This document shows, piece after piece, positions 20,262 to 62,561 of a DNA stretch of 64,000 nt. How positions within the stretch are numbered: the stretch's first letter is position 1; the number at the start of each line of letters is the position of its first letter. The stretch is taken from positions 1,037 to 65,036 of IMG/VR virus record IMGVR_UViG_3300020042_003898; one strand, written 5' to 3'. The notes under the pieces are model-generated. The model ran no database searches. It was not told where the DNA came from and saw only the letters and a list, made by a program, of their open reading frames with translations. The DNA is from a virus (Duplodnaviria > Caudoviricetes). The translations under genes and the position numbers were made by a program.

Positions 20262-20338
20262 GTGACCGTAACTCAGTTGGATAGAGTAACGGATTTCTAC
20301 TCCGTAGGTCGGGGGTTCAAATCCCTCCGGTCACACCA
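20262..20338 (+). tRNA. trnR: tRNA-Arg (anticodon UCU)
   Basis: acceptor GTGACCG/CGGTCAC, D-arm ACTC/GAGT, anticodon arm ACGGA-TT-TCT-AC-TCCGT, T-loop GTTCAAA, encoded CCA. Confidence 0.96.
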
Positions 20339-24946: not shown

Positions 24947-25114
24947 ATGCAACTTGACTTTTTAACTGCTGAATCAATCTTTGTAATTGGATATATCTCT
25001 GTAGTATTTATTTTATTTCTGATGATTATAATTTCTTGTATAAAAATCAGTACTAATAGTATTAAGAAGTTTATCTTAGAATATAATTACCTTGACAGTA
25101 CCAAGAACGATTGA
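24947..25114 (+). CDS. 55-aa single-TM protein (not in ORF track)
   Basis: MQLDFLTAESIFVIGYISVVFILFLMIIISC...; SD AAGGAG. Confidence 0.55.
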   Translation: MQLDFLTAESIFVIGYISVVFILFLMIIISCIKISTNSIKKFILEYNYLDSTKND

Positions 25115-58337: not shown

Positions 58338-59822
58338 TTAAAAATTATTACTAGGTAATGTCAAACCTGAAGATGGTAAAGATATACCAGACATTTCAAA
58401 TGAAGGTGCTTGAAACAAATCAGGCAAAGAAAATGTAGGCATTACAAAATCTTTATTCAAAAGACTAAAACAGTCACTTACGCAGTCAACTTGGTCGTCA
58501 TGATGTTTACCAGATCCATCAAATATCTCTAGTTCATCAAAGAAATCTTTATTCCATTCTGCCTTGACTACATTAACAAACCCTGCTTGCGCTACACTAC
58601 TGAAAGGAGCAAATCTAGTAATCTTAGATTTAACAGGACGTTGTAATCTACAAGTAAACCCCATCTCACCAAGTCTCATTTGTAAGTTCTTGGCATAAGC
58701 CGCAGCAGCGGCATTCGGATCTTGTGGAATAGAAATAATAACTTCTGTACCATCTTGTACTGCTGTACTAAAGATAAGTTTCTCTACTTCATGTACTCTA
58801 TCTCTTAAGCCTACTACACTTTCTATAGTATAAACTTTCGCTTTATCCTTAGAGATTAAAACACCTCTAGTCCAGTCTGGATTAGCGTACTGCTCAGAAG
58901 GCTTAGAGAAAGCAAAGTCCCAAGCACGAACCCGTTGTGTAGCCCTTGCATTTGCATGATCTACTAATCCAACCCAATCTCTCTTAAATAATCCAGATGA
59001 CTCTTGTCTAGCAAACCAAGACCCAAGTAAAAGCCTCTCCATCTCTACTCTAGGTAAAGACATTAACCTGCTTATATAATCAGGCTGTGCTTTTAATAAA
59101 GGAGGATTATCTCTACAAGTAGCAGGAATAAAAGTAAATGTAGACAGACCAGATTCATTACCTGCTCCATGAACAGCCTCTGCTTCTGCTAAAGAGTTAT
59201 ACCAAAGCATAGTATTACCTTGCCTGAAGAACCAACGCTTTACACCTGCTAGTTCTTCTTTAGGAATACCTGTATTTGGATCTAAATAGAAATCCTGAAT
59301 CCATGTTCTTAGGAATGAATTATAATCAGGATTAGTCATCATGAACATCTGTGGTTTATAATCTACATACGCATTACGTAATCTAGATAATAAATACACA
59401 ATCATATCTTCTGTGAAGTCTGTTGCTTCATCAAAAATAACTAATGAGTACTGACCACCTTTATGATCGTACATATTACTAGCGTGCTGCATATGACTGA
59501 ACTTCAGGATAGCACCATTAGGAAATAGAATCTCATTTTCTCTGTGTCTTATACGTAACCCTGTCTTATATATCGAGGTGTACATATTAACGGCTTCATG
59601 CCAGATAGAGCCGGGACTCGTAATCATTTTGCTAGTTCTACGAAAGATAACTCCCGTAGCCCTTGGGTGCTGCATAAACTTCAAAGCAATCAAAAGAGAA
59701 GTATATGTCTTACCTGATCCTGCTGAACCACCACATAAAGTAATGTTAGCATCAGAGTTCAAAAAGATCTCTTGCTTCTTCGAGGCAGGTGCTAGGCTAA
59801 CAATTTCAGTATCGTTTTGCAT
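58338..59822 (-). CDS. terL: terminase large subunit
   Basis: Walker A 'GGSAGSGKT', Walker B 'VIFDEA', 'TNPD', nuclease 'RAWDFA' and 'HDDQVD'. Confidence 0.96.
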   Translation of the reverse strand: MQNDTEIVSLAPASKKQEIFLNSDANITLCGGSAGSGKTYTSLLIALKFMQHPRATGVIFRRTSKMITSPGSIWHEAVNMYTSIYKTGLRIRHRENEILFPNGAILKFSHMQHASNMYDHKGGQYSLVIFDEATDFTEDMIVYLLSRLRNAYVDYKPQMFMMTNPDYNSFLRTWIQDFYLDPNTGIPKEELAGVKRWFFRQGNTMLWYNSLAEAEAVHGAGNESGLSTFTFIPATCRDNPPLLKAQPDYISRLMSLPRVEMERLLLGSWFARQESSGLFKRDWVGLVDHANARATQRVRAWDFAFSKPSEQYANPDWTRGVLISKDKAKVYTIESVVGLRDRVHEVEKLIFSTAVQDGTEVIISIPQDPNAAAAAYAKNLQMRLGEMGFTCRLQRPVKSKITRFAPFSSVAQAGFVNVVKAEWNKDFFDELEIFDGSGKHHDDQVDCVSDCFSLLNKDFVMPTFSLPDLFQAPSFEMSGISLPSSGLTLPSNNF

Positions 59823-59829
59823 TTAAGAT

Positions 59830-60198
59830 TTATTCTTCCGGTGTATCTCCGCTAATCATCTTTAGAGAGAATGTAGGCTGATTCTGTGCTTGGACTTCTG
59901 TCGCTTCAGCATCAGGATCTTCACTCTCGTATAAATCAAGAGTAAGCCTTCTGTAATTATCTAAAAGAATAGTAGCAGCCTTTAATTGATTCTGGTGCGC
60001 TGCTTCTTCGTTCTTCATGATCTTCGCTGCTTGCATAATAGCATCAGCAACGTGAGGTCTAATTCTACGTAGAAGCATTAAGAGTTCACGCTCTTTTAGA
60101 CTTCTGTTTGTTTCTTTACCATCTTTAGGACGACGACCACCTATATTAATATTAGGGTCAGTCATTCCACCAAGTTCTTCTCTTTTCTTAAAAACCAA
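59830..60198 (-). CDS. terS: terminase small subunit (putative), TTG start
   Basis: 'NINIGGRRPK' motif; helical; immediately upstream of TerL; SD AAGGAG. Confidence 0.7.
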   Translation of the reverse strand: MVFKKREELGGMTDPNINIGGRRPKDGKETNRSLKERELLMLLRRIRPHVADAIMQAAKIMKNEEAAHQNQLKAATILLDNYRRLTLDLYESEDPDAEATEVQAQNQPTFSLKMISGDTPEE

Positions 60199-60367
60199 TT
60201 TAATCTCCTTTATTTTGAATTAGTCCTGCTTAACAGGCTTACGGTGTTAGCCCTGCTTACTTTATACAGGATAGACTCTCGTGCTATAGTGTAATTACAC
60301 GAAGCATTTAACGGTACTCAGTCGGTGTAGTAACTCTACACAAGTCCTAAGGTAGTAGGACAGTTGG

Positions 60368-60577
60368 CTAAAGACCTGCGTCTGTTTCGTTTGAATCTAC
60401 TTCATTAAAAACAGCAGCAGTTTTACCATTAGGGTTTACCAGCATCTGTATCTCTATCTCGCACTCTTCATCTAATTCAACTACAGGAAGCACATAAGCA
60501 CAATCCTGACAGTTATAACTATCGTTATAGAACTGCGTAATTCTATAGTAACTAGCACAAGTGATACAGGTAGGCAT
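60368..60577 (-). CDS. small zinc-finger protein
   Basis: CxxC...CxxC plus acidic tail. Confidence 0.6.
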   Translation of the reverse strand: MPTCITCASYYRITQFYNDSYNCQDCAYVLPVVELDEECEIEIQMLVNPNGKTAAVFNEVDSNETDAGL

Positions 60578-60629
60578 TTATTATTAAAATCCGTAATAAA
60601 AGAAATAAAGGTTTACTTTATCGAAAGGT

Positions 60630-60653
60630 AAAAAAAAAGACTCTTTCGAGCCT
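60630..60653 (-). terminator. rho-independent terminator
   Basis: AGGCTC-GAAA-GAGTCT hairpin plus a 9-T run. Confidence 0.8.
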
Positions 60654-60993
60654 TGGTAAGTAATAAATGCTGCTTACTATACTACAGCGTCGATGCCGCC
60701 CTAACGGGCCTTACATAAGATTCCTCCTACGCTCGACAGATCTAGCATCATGGACTTGTGCTAATTGGTACATCACCTGTGAGCACAATCCTCTTCCCAT
60801 CCCAATGGGTTCTTTAAATTAGTTCCAGTTAATTATCTGGAGTTATGCAAGTTGTGCTTATCTATGATTTACGAGCAAAACAGACATAGCAGGTTTATGA
60901 AGATGCAGAGTCTATTCATTTGTATCGTCTAAGCAGGTACTATACGCTTAATATATAATTTTACAAAGACAGTATAAATAGATTTACAATTTC
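60630..60993 (-). ncRNA. candidate structured non-coding RNA (~360 nt), family unassigned
   Basis: lies between a consensus promoter and a strong terminator; no ORF in the track; many stems visible. Confidence 0.55.
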
Positions 60994-60999
60994 TAGTAA

Positions 61000-61028
61000 A
61001 TTATAACATCACAATACAGTATTGTCAA
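61000..61028 (-). promoter_or_regulatory. consensus sigma70 promoter
   Basis: TTGACA-17-TATAAT. Confidence 0.88.
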
Positions 61029-61093
61029 GGTATATGACGTTTGCTATTTCCGAATAGAGAACACAGGTAGATCTCATTAAGAGATCATGCATC

Positions 61094-61585
61094 TCATTGA
61101 GAGATAGTGTATTTCCCTAGCACTTTAATAAACTTAAGTTGAAGTTTAGTAAACTTCTTTCTTGCTATCGTTATATCAGATATCACTTCGCGCTTTATCC
61201 TACCTTTGTACTTGTATTCAAGCACGTAAGAAAAAGCATCTCTTGAATGCGGAGTAATCTTTAAATTACCAGATAAGTTCTTTAGAGACTCTTGAATAAC
61301 AAAATACTCTTTTTTAGTAATAAGAATAAGGTTATTAAGTCTATTATTATAAATATCTAAGTCTTTATGAAACACCACCTCTGTCGAGGTAGGGTAGTAG
61401 TTATGCACTAAGCACCAAACAAGTCTGTCGTACTTAATCTTTAACCTAATTGAATTTACATTAGTTATAACCATATGCTCTTCATTAGGTAGAAGTTTTC
61501 TATACCTGACTTTATCTTTAAGCACAAAGATATCTCCTGTTGTAGGGATATACTCTAAATGCTGAGATATTTCAGATATTTGCAT
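61094..61585 (-). CDS. degenerate HNH-like protein
   Basis: 'L.Y.P.TG', 'RLVW...', 'VFHKDLDIYNNRLNNL' resembles HNH_3, but the final N/H is missing. Confidence 0.6.
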   Translation of the reverse strand: MQISEISQHLEYIPTTGDIFVLKDKVRYRKLLPNEEHMVITNVNSIRLKIKYDRLVWCLVHNYYPTSTEVVFHKDLDIYNNRLNNLILITKKEYFVIQESLKNLSGNLKITPHSRDAFSYVLEYKYKGRIKREVISDITIARKKFTKLQLKFIKVLGKYTISQ

Positions 61586-61591
61586 TATAAT

Positions 61592-61882
61592 CCTTAGTGT
61601 ATCTTAGGTTGTATTCTTAGTTTAATCTTAGGTGTAATCTTGTAAGTATATACTTTGTACTTCGTTAGAAGATTAAATATACTAAGTATTAGATAGCACA
61701 TAAGATGACAACAAGATTTAAGCACTAAGGTCGTAGCACTAAACATATAGCACTAAACTCAAAACACTAAAGACTTAGCACTAAGATAAAATAATTTACT
61801 AAGTTAAATAAACTCAGTCTCTTTCAAGTCAGAATCCTGTATCTAAGATATATACCTTAGAATGTAACCTTGTAAGTATATA
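61592..61882. repeat. ordered repeat locus (iteron/pac-like)
   Basis: five AGCACTAA-type units at exact 14-bp spacing (61721-61790); opposed CTTAG units (61593-61631); 20-bp near-perfect direct repeat (61633/61863). Confidence 0.75.
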
Positions 61883-61989
61883 ATCTTATTATTGTTAAAT
61901 GGGTTAATATTTATTTTATTAGATAAGTCTTAAAGTTTAATCTTAGAATACATAACCGGCGATGTCATCTTATATACAATACAAATTTA

Positions 61990-62078
61990 ATTGTATCATA
62001 TTTTTGTGGTAAAGTCAAGGTAAGATTTAGGACTAAATTTGCTTAACCTATTGCTTTTTCAGAAAGTACTGCTATAAT
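61990..62078. promoter_or_regulatory. divergent sigma70-like promoters
   Basis: leftward TTGACT(62013-62018)-17-TACAAT; rightward TTGCTT(62051-62056)-16-TATAAT with TG. Confidence 0.7.
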
Positions 62079-62177
62079 CAAAGAGTACCTTAAAAAGAGG
62101 TGTAAATAGAAGTACTCAAAAATATATTTTATTTATTTTATAAAAAGCCATAAACCAATTGACAAGAAGGAGCAAAT

Positions 62178-62477
62178 ATGCCTGACTTTAAATATCCAAC
62201 AGTCCAGATCGAAGCCTATAACCTAGCAGAGTTCTGTACTAAAGTTCAAGAAGCCTTCATTAAAGGATTCAGATTTGATCTAGAGACAAACAGTAACTAT
62301 CCTACAGCCTTCGGAGCGTACTACTCTGCTGGTATGCAACTAAAGGTAGAATCTCCTAAAGAAGTTACCTATAATACTGTTCTAGATCCAGTTCTAGACC
62401 CAGTTGTAGAACAAGAGATTAGCGTAGATCCTCAGGAAGAGCCACAGAAGGCTACCAGAGCCTCTAAGAAGGTATAA
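62178..62477 (+). CDS. hypothetical protein
   Basis: SD AAGGAG; 99 aa. Confidence 0.7.
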   Translation: MPDFKYPTVQIEAYNLAEFCTKVQEAFIKGFRFDLETNSNYPTAFGAYYSAGMQLKVESPKEVTYNTVLDPVLDPVVEQEISVDPQEEPQKATRASKKV

Positions 62478-62561
62478 CCAAGGGCTACATAGCCAAATGA
62501 CTTATAAGACGCTCCTAGAGGCTTTAAAAGGCTTCTAGAGGTCTAGAAGAAGGAGTACGTA

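What the first reader, a model, noticed from the sequence alone, without database searches (positions are those of the whole stretch)
60630..61028. Self-contained structured non-coding transcription unit at the head of the terminase operon
Seen: a perfect TTGACA-17-TATAAT promoter (minus strand), then ~360 nt with no ORF in the track, then a GAAA-loop terminator with 9 T. The interval is packed with stems: GGA-TTGTGCT/AGCACAA-G-TCC, CCCAT/ATGGG, CCAG/CTGG, GCCC-GTTA-GGGC, GTCGA/TCGAC, GCTG/CAGC and TGCT/AGCA. It also has a strong SD followed by a start-stop (AGGAGG-aatctt-ATG-TAA). I found no other consensus promoter between this terminator and terS. Known: phages carry large structured ncRNAs (GOLLD, ROOL), packaging RNAs (phi29 pRNA) and cis antiterminator RNAs (HK022 put). 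Inference: this is either a stand-alone phage ncRNA of unassigned class or a leader whose folding or ribosome loading controls read-through into the packaging/head operon.
Basis: partly seen in the sequence, partly recalled or inferred. Interest (0 to 1): 0.8.

Follow-up and report, generated by a model that had tools for sequence, protein, structure and literature searches.

The report
New phage packaging-operon leader RNA
A perfect promoter ahead of this freshwater phage's DNA-packaging genes drives a roughly 370-nt non-coding unit (by sequence; no RNA data), whose first 180 nt belong to a structured RNA family with no Rfam match, shared with Limnohabitans and Curvibacter phages; it probably gates packaging-gene expression.

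Summary
A 12/12 sigma-70 promoter with an extended -10 lies at 61028..61000 (minus strand). About 370 nt without a conserved ORF follow, then a GAAA-loop terminator with a run of nine T.

The unit has two unequal halves. The 5' 181 nt (60999..60819) belong to a structured RNA family that matches no Rfam model. A covariance model built only from relatives hits it full-length (76.9 bits, E about 3e-15). The family has seven helices and 41 pairs. In a 20-sequence alignment, 95% of cells pair, against 30-39% when partners are slid, and 22 pairs show compensatory changes. It occurs once per genome, always behind a near-consensus promoter and upstream of orf69/terS/terL. Carriers include the cultured Limnohabitans phage DC31 and Curvibacter phage P26059A.

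It occurs only in four near-identical strains. The start-stop sits inside an 8-bp hairpin with a GGAA loop.

The last hairpin of the core, with its ACUAA flank, recurs just 5' of the terS ribosome site. In other lineages it lies just 5' of an intrinsic terminator.

Best guess (about 0.4): a cis-acting leader that controls read-through into the packaging genes. A trans-acting RNA is the main rival. No expression data could be obtained.

The parts
61000..61028 (-). Promoter P1: TTGACA, 17-nt spacer, TG-extended TATAAT
   Evidence: 12/12 match with TG. A promoter matching at least 11/12 stands at this same distance (29 nt) from the model start in 23 of the 43 listed matches, and 30-59 nt away in four more: DC31, L034, L042 and Curvibacter phage P26059A.
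60819..60999 (-). Conserved core RNA ('RNA-1'), 181 nt. Helices: P1a 60991-60993/60899-60901; P1b 60976-60982/60911-60917; P2 60967-60971/60926-60930; P3 60953-60959/60939-60945; P4 60885-60890/60842-60847; P5 60875-60879/60853-60857; P6 60837-60841/60824-60828; ACUAA flank 60819-60823
   Evidence: Covariance model R1, built from 20 relatives without the window, hits it full-length at 76.9 bits, E about 3e-15. 35 of the 41 model pairs form in the window.
60939..60959 (-). P3 hairpin. UAUUAAGCG (60953-60945) spans the closing U.G pair and the 7-nt loop AUUAAGC. It is flanked by GUAAA on the 5' side and CCUGC on the 3' side. The same GUAAA/C-rich-UGC internal loop recurs between P1a and P1b.
   Evidence: This is the most conserved feature of the family. 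Five of the seven P3 pairs show compensatory changes. The motif was used to fish out further members.
60819..60841 (-). P6 module: 5-bp GC-rich stem, 8-nt loop ending in UAA, then ACUAA
   Evidence: Conserved in all family members. It is duplicated in tandem in strains L106 and L107, with compensated stems. By a strict search this module occurs at only one other place in the 64-kb window, before orf122.
60655..60818 (-). Lineage-specific 3' extension: hairpin 60796-60809; two-allele hairpin 60752-60791; GGAA-loop hairpin 60713-60732, which holds the SD-like AGGAGG and most of the ATG-TAA (60716-60711); GCCC-GUUA-GGGC 60698-60709; GCUG/CAGC hairpin 60669-60688
   Evidence: Found only in L002, L106 and L107, strains 92-100% identical to the window. 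Strain differences keep the pairing: one G-C to A-U double change and several G.U to A-U changes.
60630..60654 (-). Intrinsic terminator: 7-bp stem, GAAA loop, run of nine U
   Evidence: Identical in all four strains.
60368..60577 (-). orf69: small zinc-ribbon protein (CxxC-x15-CxxC) with an acidic tail and an NPSGKT motif. It is the first ORF after the RNA.
   Evidence: Homologues are found in nearly every locus that carries RNA-1, mostly directly downstream of it. No Pfam or PHROG family matches and the Atlas search gave no lead.
60199..60367 (-). Second leader, before orf122. It carries two P6-like modules (60247-60271 and 60220-60238), then AAGGAG and a TTG start codon.
   Evidence: In relatives, a 150-nt structured RNA ending in the same module lies in this position.
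59830..60198 (-). orf122, the small-terminase-like gene directly upstream of terL
   Evidence: The terS-like assignment rests on position only. PHROG 3900 (function unknown) is the sole family hit. The synteny holds across relatives.
61094..61585 (-). HNH163: HNH_3-domain protein. It is the conserved upstream neighbour of the RNA.
   Evidence: Pfam HNH_3, E = 1.1e-6. The order HNH, then RNA, then orf69 holds in about 20 loci.

Best explanation
Shown. The interval is a real promoter-to-terminator unit. Its first 181 nt (60999..60819, minus strand) belong to a structured RNA family with no Rfam match. The family is carried once per genome by DC31-like and P26059A-like phages of freshwater Comamonadaceae. 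A (near-)consensus sigma-70 promoter sits just upstream, so transcription should start at or within a few bases of helix P1a. The RNA forms a rod (P1a-P1b-P2-P3) with two copies of a GUAAA/CCCUGC internal loop and a conserved AUUAAGC apical loop. A second domain (P4-P5) follows, then a terminal hairpin (P6) with an ACUAA flank. Four base pairs stay G.U in 15 to 20 of the 20 aligned sequences (two in all 20). This fixes the strand as that of the promoter.

Inferred. The RNA works in cis as the leader of the transcript that enters the packaging genes (orf69, terS-like orf122, terL, portal). The constitutive promoter fires. In the window lineage most transcripts should stop at the GAAA terminator, giving a roughly 370-nt RNA. 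Expression of orf69 and terS then depends on read-through. The conserved fold would promote or tune that read-through, most likely through a host or phage factor, or RNA polymerase itself, recognising the P6/ACUAA module. In effect this would be a nut- or put-like antitermination or attenuation leader.

The 3' 180 nt are a recent add-on that supplies the terminator.
For: Family and fold:
- On 20 sequences there are 41 pairs. 95.1% of cells pair, against 29.5-39.2% when partners are slid by 1-3 columns.
- 22 pairs change on both sides. The covariation score is 0.415 against 0.05-0.08 slid, and 0 of 500 shuffles reach it.
- The window scores 76.9 bits with a model it did not help to build.
- The family is present in Limnohabitans phage DC31 at 192.8 bits.
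- It is also in Curvibacter phage P26059A at 82.4 bits, where TerL is only 48% identical.
- There is one copy per genome in five near-complete genomes.
- The promoter stands at a fixed distance.

Cis position:
- In every locus oriented by terL (L002-L049), the RNA has the same orientation as terL and lies upstream of it.
- In P26059A, L034/35/42, L010 and L005 it is the 5' UTR of orf69, ending 15-60 nt before the start codon with no second promoter.

Termination theme:
- In the window there is no promoter between the terminator and terS.
- The P6/ACUAA module recurs 7-20 nt upstream of the terS ribosome site.
- In six other lineages (L004, L006, L007, L008, L022, L046) the module is followed within about 10 nt by a GC-rich hairpin with a U-tract, and then directly by the terS SD and start codon.

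A perfect constitutive promoter in front of late-type genes implies that control comes after initiation. This last point rests on general knowledge of lambda PR'/tR'.
Against:
- In the DC31/L014/L011 clade a second sigma-70 promoter (up to 12/12) lies between the RNA and orf69. There the RNA looks like a separate gene.
- Near-consensus promoters also lie inside the structural block, at 58364, 48802, 42264 and 36762 on the minus strand. Long-range processive antitermination is therefore not needed.
- No covariation-supported alternative pairing links the core to any terminator.
- No binding factor has been identified.
- The CU-rich P5 loop (ACUCCUUUC), conserved in most members, is missing from the window.
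Confidence: 0.4

Rival explanations
1. A stand-alone, trans-acting stable RNA, made early and in quantity from a constitutive promoter. It would act as a base-pairing sRNA or as a protein sponge or decoy. Its conserved single-stranded loops (AUUAAGC, the CU-rich P5 loop, the P6 loop) and the twin internal loops would be the binding sites.
For: It has its own perfect or near-perfect promoter. The window lineage closes the unit with a strong terminator. The DC31/L014 clade places a second promoter after it, so the fold is under purifying selection even where downstream genes have their own promoter. The loop sequences are invariant. The P5 loop ACUCCUUUC looks like an anti-Shine-Dalgarno sequence (by eye).
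Against: Most lineages have no terminator after the core, and in five it runs straight into orf69. No target was identified. The window lacks the CU-rich loop. The fixed position and orientation upstream of the packaging genes are not required of a trans-acting RNA, although synteny alone could explain them.
Confidence: 0.3
2. A 5' UTR operator, or a processing and stability element. The P6/ACUAA hairpin just upstream of the ribosome sites of orf69 and terS would be bound by a translational regulator (perhaps the zinc-ribbon orf69 itself, by analogy with phage Mu Com). Alternatively it is cut by RNase E in the AU-rich flank, which would set mRNA 5' ends and translation rates.
For: The module lies 7-20 nt before the SD of terS in most relatives and before orf69 in basal lineages. 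orf69 is a CxxC-x15-CxxC zinc ribbon that almost always accompanies the RNA. ACUAA followed by UUU fits the RNase E preference (general knowledge).
Against: The module keeps its sequence when a terminator, a promoter or 190 nt are inserted between it and the start codon. This argues against a spacing-dependent translational operator. The large conserved 5' domain is left unexplained. orf69 matches no RNA-binding family.
Confidence: 0.15
3. A riboswitch. The 180-nt core would be an aptamer for a metabolite or ion, possibly with two sites in the twin internal loops. Expression platforms would vary by lineage (terminator, SD proximity).
For: The pattern is typical of aptamers: invariant internal loops and junctions with freely covarying stems. 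It has a 5' UTR position in several lineages. Terminators lie downstream in some lineages.
Against: Covariation supports no mutually exclusive pairing. The terminators look self-contained. In the window the 'platform' is 190 nt away and lineage-specific. In one clade a promoter separates the RNA from the gene.
Confidence: 0.08
4. A DNA-level signal between the HNH and terS genes, such as a pac/cos site, an origin or a protein-binding array, rather than an RNA.
For: HNH, terS, terL is the usual neighbourhood of cos/pac sites (general knowledge). Another first-stage note made this suggestion for a relative.
Against: The near-invariant G.U pairs would be A-C mismatches on the other strand. Stems covary while their sequence drifts. 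A promoter is fixed at the 5' end of the fold. In a 77-kb genome with direct terminal repeats the element lies mid-genome, at 35.7 kb.
Confidence: 0.03

Closest known systems
Phage HK022 put RNAs (cis-acting, factor-independent processive antitermination)
   Same: Structured RNA encoded just downstream of strong promoters, in cis with long operons. Terminators lie downstream. There are two related elements per genome: here RNA-1 and the terS leader, which share the P6 module.
   Different: put is about 70 nt with two stem-loops. This RNA is about 185 nt with seven helices and no resemblance I could see to put as I recall it. The hosts are Betaproteobacteria. No functional test exists. One clade has a promoter after the RNA.
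Lambda PR' - 6S leader - tR' with Q, and lambda nut (boxA/boxB) with N
   Same: A constitutive consensus promoter, a short non-coding transcript, a strong terminator, then late or packaging genes. A small conserved hairpin plus a linear flank (P6 + ACUAA) upstream of terminators resembles a nut site in layout.
   Different: Q acts through DNA and the lambda leader has no conserved fold. No N- or Q-like protein was found. The P6 loop (8 nt ending GUAA) is unlike boxB. Any likeness to boxA is by eye only.
Phage P1/P7 c4 RNA (leader-derived regulatory RNA)
   Same: A structured RNA made from the 5' part of an operon transcript. It could be released and act on downstream ribosome sites.
   Different: c4 is 77 nt with defined antisense targets in its own operon. 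No such complementarity was found here.
Large phage-associated ncRNAs (GOLLD, ROOL) and phi29 pRNA
   Same: Phage-borne structured RNAs of unknown or packaging-related function.
   Different: Nothing from Rfam, which should include these models, came up at E <= 10. The sizes and architectures differ. There is no evidence for loop-loop oligomerisation.
Catalogue candidates in IMG/VR (Fremin and Bhatt 2023, PMC10690425: 8,495 unnamed 'DNAVirus_X' motifs, 29-151 nt)
   Same: The same data source and the same kind of object. That paper reports 14 motifs upstream of a putative large terminase.
   Different: Their files are not held here, so overlap could not be checked. Their longest motif is 151 nt, shorter than this core. 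At most a fragment of this RNA could be listed there.

Membership tests
RNA-1 family defined here (model R1) | Full-length match to the covariance model (seven helices, 41 pairs) | tested here: met
   Window 60819..60999 (-): 76.9 bits, E about 3e-15, model positions 1-188. 35 of 41 pairs form. The window was not in the training set.
RNA-1 family defined here (model R1) | Sigma-70 promoter directly 5' of helix P1a | tested here: met
   The -10 hexamer ends at 61000 and the model starts at 60999. The spacing is the same in 23 of the 43 listed matches.
RNA-1 family defined here (model R1) | Position after the HNH gene and upstream of orf69/terS/terL, in the same orientation | tested here: met
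RNA-1 family defined here (model R1) | CU-rich P5 loop (ACUCCUUUC) | tested here: not met
   Absent from the window and L002, and also from L018, L099, L044 and L049. It is therefore not a universal feature of the family.
Any Rfam 15 family (including pRNA, GOLLD, ROOL, riboswitches, 6S, tmRNA, group I intron) | cmscan match at or near the gathering score | tested here: not met
   Only chance-level eukaryotic hits at E >= 0.2 in 59500-62500. Nothing fell on the homologous region of six relatives at E <= 0.1.
Intrinsic (Rho-independent) terminator | GC-containing stem-loop followed directly by a U-tract | tested here: met
   60654..60637: 7 pairs, GAAA loop, then a run of nine U.
Riboswitch | Aptamer coupled to an expression platform through mutually exclusive pairings | tested here: inconclusive
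   The candidate alternative helices pair in 76-82% of cells with at most one compensatory pair. P4 pairs in 100% with five. Ligand binding cannot be tested here.
put-type or nut-type antitermination RNA | Makes RNA polymerase resistant to downstream terminators in cis | not testable with these tools
   Only the layout is seen: promoter, RNA, terminator, genes.
Start-stop (minimal ORF) ribosome-loading site | Accessible SD at the proper distance from an AUG-stop, conserved as such | tested here: not met
   The SD-like bases and the AUG pair within an 8-bp hairpin with a GGAA loop. AGGAGG is AAGAGG in L107. The element is absent outside four strains.

The most novel reading that the evidence does not exclude
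RNA-1, together with the related terS leader, is a new RNA-based antitermination system of Betaproteobacteria phages. It would time late (packaging) gene expression from constitutive promoters, either put-like and acting on RNA polymerase itself, or as a nut-like site for an unknown factor. Alternatively the twin-loop rod is a new ligand- or protein-sensing aptamer class.
Probability: 0.2. Interest if true: 0.85.

Novelty: new variant of a known kind. Interest (0 to 1): 0.6.

Why it matters
Structured phage leaders and ncRNAs are a known kind, but very few have a known mechanism. RNA-only or RNA-centred antitermination is known from only a handful of systems.

This RNA is unusually large (about 185 nt, 41 pairs) and its covariation support is strong. 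It sits at the entry to the packaging genes. It is present in two cultured phage-host pairs (DC31 with Limnohabitans sp. DCL3; P26059A with Curvibacter sp. IMCC26059), so its function can be tested directly.

DC31-like phages are reported as globally distributed in fresh waters (PMC12195039). The neighbourhood also holds a second structured leader and a conserved zinc-ribbon protein, neither of which matched any family searched here.

Tried and rejected
- **Rfam.** Scans of the window and six relatives at permissive E-values gave nothing.
- **Sequence searches.** blastn of the region against 50,697 phage records found no match. blastn and nhmmer against 48 terL-related loci found only one near-identical strain. 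The family emerged only after comparing syntenic intergenic regions by eye.
- **Prokaryote genomes.** A strict two-part pattern found 0 hits in 185,579 genomes. This gives no sign of a prophage or host copy, but divergent copies would be missed.
- **Pseudomonas Pakpunavirus PaGz-1.** No hit with filters off in the 17-kb stretch around terL.
- **Small ORFs.** Rejected because of frame-breaking indels between strains.
- **Start-stop reading.** Rejected.
- **Alternative pairings and pseudoknots in the core.** No covariation support.
- **orf69 as a Com-like RNA binder.** No support from Pfam, PHROGs or the ESM Atlas. Its structure was not predicted.
- **Ideas seen by eye only, not tested.** These were: the P5 loop or the ACUAA flank as boxA-like; a likeness of CCUGC/CUCCUUU to the 16S 3' end; the AUAAACC linker as a type I-E CRISPR handle (an RNA anti-CRISPR). 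All rest on short motifs that are not universal in the family, so they are dropped as unsupported.
- **Prior description.** The supplementary files of PMC10690425 are not held, so whether a fragment of this RNA is already catalogued is unknown. The papers on DC31 and P26059A mention no ncRNA or promoter.

Full report
**1. Observation**

On the minus strand, TTGACA-17-TATAAT with a TG-extended -10 lies at 61028..61000. It is the only 12/12 site in 56-64 kb and one of two in the whole window. The other, at 25092 on the plus strand, leads straight into a gene with a 40-nt leader.

A 7-pair GAAA-loop hairpin lies at 60654..60637, followed by a run of nine T that ends at 60630. No ORF of 30 aa or more lies between promoter and terminator on the transcribed strand. 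The short frames that do exist are broken by a 1-nt indel between near-identical strains. No promoter-like site lies on this strand between the terminator and orf122.

Folding energy is only modestly better than shuffles, with z = -2.3. Single-sequence folding alone would therefore not have made the case.

**2. Context**

The window is an IMG/VR phage record of 65 kb, 79% complete. Reading leftward, the order is:
- HNH163, with a Pfam HNH_3 domain
- this intergenic region
- orf69, a zinc ribbon
- orf122, terS-like by position
- terL
- a Mu-type portal

The closest cultured relative is Limnohabitans phage DC31 (TerL 76% identical). Next come Curvibacter phage P26059A (48%) and the Pseudomonas Pakpunavirus group (43%).

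**3. A conserved RNA hidden from sequence search**

blastn and nhmmer found the region in only one near-identical strain. However, about 20 terL-related loci keep the order HNH, then a 230-520-nt gap (longer in two loci), then orf69. Laid side by side, these gaps share several features:
- a TTGAAA/TTGACT-17-TGnTATAAT promoter
- a hairpin in which UAUUAAGCG spans the closing pair and the loop
- two CCCUGC motifs
- a terminal CNGG...GUAAC-CNG hairpin followed by ACUAA

A motif scan of IMG/VR added further members.

A scan for paired columns that vary in concert gave seven helices. On a 20-sequence alignment these 41 pairs are formed in 95.1% of cells, against 29.5-39.2% when the partners are slid by 1-3 columns. 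Twenty-two pairs change on both sides. The covariation score is 0.415 against 0.05-0.08 for the slid versions, and no shuffle out of 500 reaches it.

Four pairs stay G.U in 15 to 20 of the 20 sequences (two in all 20). This fixes the folding strand as the one downstream of the promoter.

The helices were picked from near-identical sequences using this same pairing and co-variation criterion. The slid and shuffle controls are therefore tilted in the structure's favour. The cleaner support is the next step, which used sequences that played no part in picking the helices.

A covariance model built from these 20 sequences hits window 60819..60999 full-length at 76.9 bits, E about 3e-15. The window was not used to build the model. 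The model also finds about 45 instances in all, including divergent ones. It scores 192.8 bits in DC31 and 82.4 bits in P26059A. It finds exactly one copy in each of five 74-84-kb genomes. In a genome with terminal repeats the copy lies mid-genome.

It was not found around terL of Pseudomonas phage PaGz-1. A strict pattern also found nothing in 185,579 prokaryote genomes. No Rfam family matches the window or its relatives. The two papers describing DC31 and P26059A do not mention it.

**4. Anatomy in the window**

- P1a (3 of 5 pairs) and P1b (7 of 7) flank an internal loop with GUAAA on one strand and CUCUGC on the other.
- P2 (5 of 5) and P3 (7 of 7) flank a second copy of the same loop.
- P3 carries the apical loop AUUAAGC.
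- The linker AUAAACC follows.
- P4 (5 of 6) encloses P5.
- P6 (5 of 5) follows, then ACUAA.

Most relatives have ACUCCUUUC in the P5 loop. The window does not. No alternative helix or pseudoknot has covariation support.

**5. The 3' half is young**

This stretch exists only in the window and three strains whose flanking genes are 98-100% identical.

Among these four strains:
- The P6 module is single or tandemly duplicated, with compensated stems.
- The hairpin at 60752-60791 comes in two alleles that differ at 13 positions. The alleles are reshuffled relative to the other polymorphisms.
- The 'SD + start-stop' forms an 8-bp hairpin with a GGAA loop. Its three differences are all G.U to A-U changes, one of which turns AGGAGG into AAGAGG.

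I therefore read the start-stop as coincidental.

**6. What follows the core in other lineages**

- In P26059A, L034/35/42, L010 and L005 the RNA runs into orf69 within 15-60 nt, with no further promoter. There it is a 5' UTR.
- In the DC31/L014/L011 clade a second sigma-70 promoter (up to 12/12) lies between the RNA and orf69. Small 28-nt insertions flanked by a repeated GCACTAATT sometimes accompany it.
- In the window clade there are 190 nt and a terminator, with no promoter.

**7. A shared module and a second RNA**

Directly upstream of the terS-like gene, most relatives carry another structured RNA of about 150 nt. It has 30 predicted pairs, formed in 96.9% of cells, and 23 of them show double changes. 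This structure is an RNAalifold prediction on the same alignment, with no slid or shuffle control.

This second RNA ends in the same hairpin-plus-ACUAA module, 7 nt before the SD. The window has two such modules before orf122, at 60247-60271 and 60220-60238. Strain L002 has four. A strict search finds this module at no other place in the 64-kb window (2 found, 0.37 expected).

In L004, L006, L007, L008, L022 and L046 the module is followed within about 10 nt by a GC-rich hairpin with a U-tract, and then immediately by the terS SD and start codon. In those phages terS can be transcribed only by reading through a terminator.

**8. Interpretation**

Shown: a new structured RNA family with its own promoter, at the entry to the packaging genes.

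Inferred: its function. I favour a cis-acting leader that controls read-through into orf69/terS/terL (about 0.4), for three reasons:
- A perfect constitutive promoter in front of late-type genes calls for control after initiation.
- Terminators recur exactly behind the P6/ACUAA module in independent lineages.
- The module tolerates insertions between itself and the start codon. This fits a nut- or put-like signal better than a spacing-dependent translational operator.

Against this reading stand the second promoter in the DC31 clade, the internal promoters in the structural block, and the lack of any identified factor or transcript data.

The main rival is a trans-acting stable RNA (0.3). A translational or processing operator (0.15), a riboswitch (0.08) and a DNA signal (0.03) follow.

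**9. Novelty**

There is no Rfam family and no mention in the papers on the two cultured carriers. A fragment may be among the 8,495 unnamed IMG/VR candidates of PMC10690425, which are at most 151 nt long. That could not be checked.

I rate it a new variant of a known kind (a phage leader or ncRNA), and above average in size, support and experimental tractability.

Noticed in passing
window 60199-60367 (-); relatives such as L014, L021 and L102, the 150-170 nt before the orf122 homologue: A second structured RNA that also matches no Rfam family lies directly upstream of the terS-like gene. It begins with GGCGUCC, has five hairpins, and ends in the same hairpin + ACUAA module 7 nt before the SD. 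RNAalifold gives 30 pairs, 96.9% of cells paired, and 23 pairs with double changes in 22 sequences. The window carries a divergent version with two modules.
   Followed up: partly
L004, L006, L007, L008, L022, L046 (just before the orf122 homologue): A GC-rich hairpin with a U-tract lies between the hairpin/ACUAA module and the terS SD and start codon, with no room for a promoter. In these phages terS/terL expression needs terminator read-through.
   Followed up: partly
window 60752-60791 (-); L002, L106, L107: This hairpin occurs in two alleles that differ at 13 positions within about 30 nt. The flanks are otherwise 99% identical and the alleles are reshuffled among strains. One G-C to A-U compensatory change keeps the stem.
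   Followed up: partly
window 60819-60841 (-); L106 and L107 downstream of the core; L002 before orf122: The copy number of the hairpin/ACUAA module varies from one to four tandem copies between near-identical strains. The copies have compensated stems.
   Followed up: partly
window 60368-60577 (-): orf69 belongs to a family of 60-90-aa proteins with CxxC-x15-CxxC, an acidic linker and a conserved L-x-NPSGKT motif. It is present in nearly every locus that carries the RNA. It matches no Pfam or PHROG family.
   Followed up: partly
L046 5327-5529; split terL matches in L028-L030 and L040-L049: A group I intron (RF00028, 101 bits) interrupts terL in L046. Several other relatives show terL in two pieces. 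This agrees with another first-stage note on a related genome.
   Followed up: no
L011 862-927, 1607-1674, 2623-2688; L046 3913-3977: Matches to the int-alpA RNA motif (RF02996; 30-39 bits against a gathering score of 35.8). In L011 they lie among the tRNA genes; in L046 the match lies just after the terS-like gene.
   Followed up: no
L014, L020, L102 (DC31), between the RNA and orf69: Hairpin-forming insertions of about 28 nt, bounded by a repeated GCACTAATT, are present in zero, one or two copies. They look like tiny mobile or duplicating units.
   Followed up: no
relatives, between orf69 and the terS-like gene (e.g. L102 4953-5447, L018, L011): Arrays of 5-6 tRNA genes occupy this gap in relatives. 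The window has none there; its only tRNA, Arg(tct), is at 20262-20338.
   Followed up: no
window, both strands: About 19 near-consensus sigma-70 promoters (mostly TTGACA -35 boxes) are spread over the genome, including inside the structural block at 58364, 48802, 42264 and 36762 on the minus strand. The phage seems to rely on host RNA polymerase throughout.
   Followed up: no
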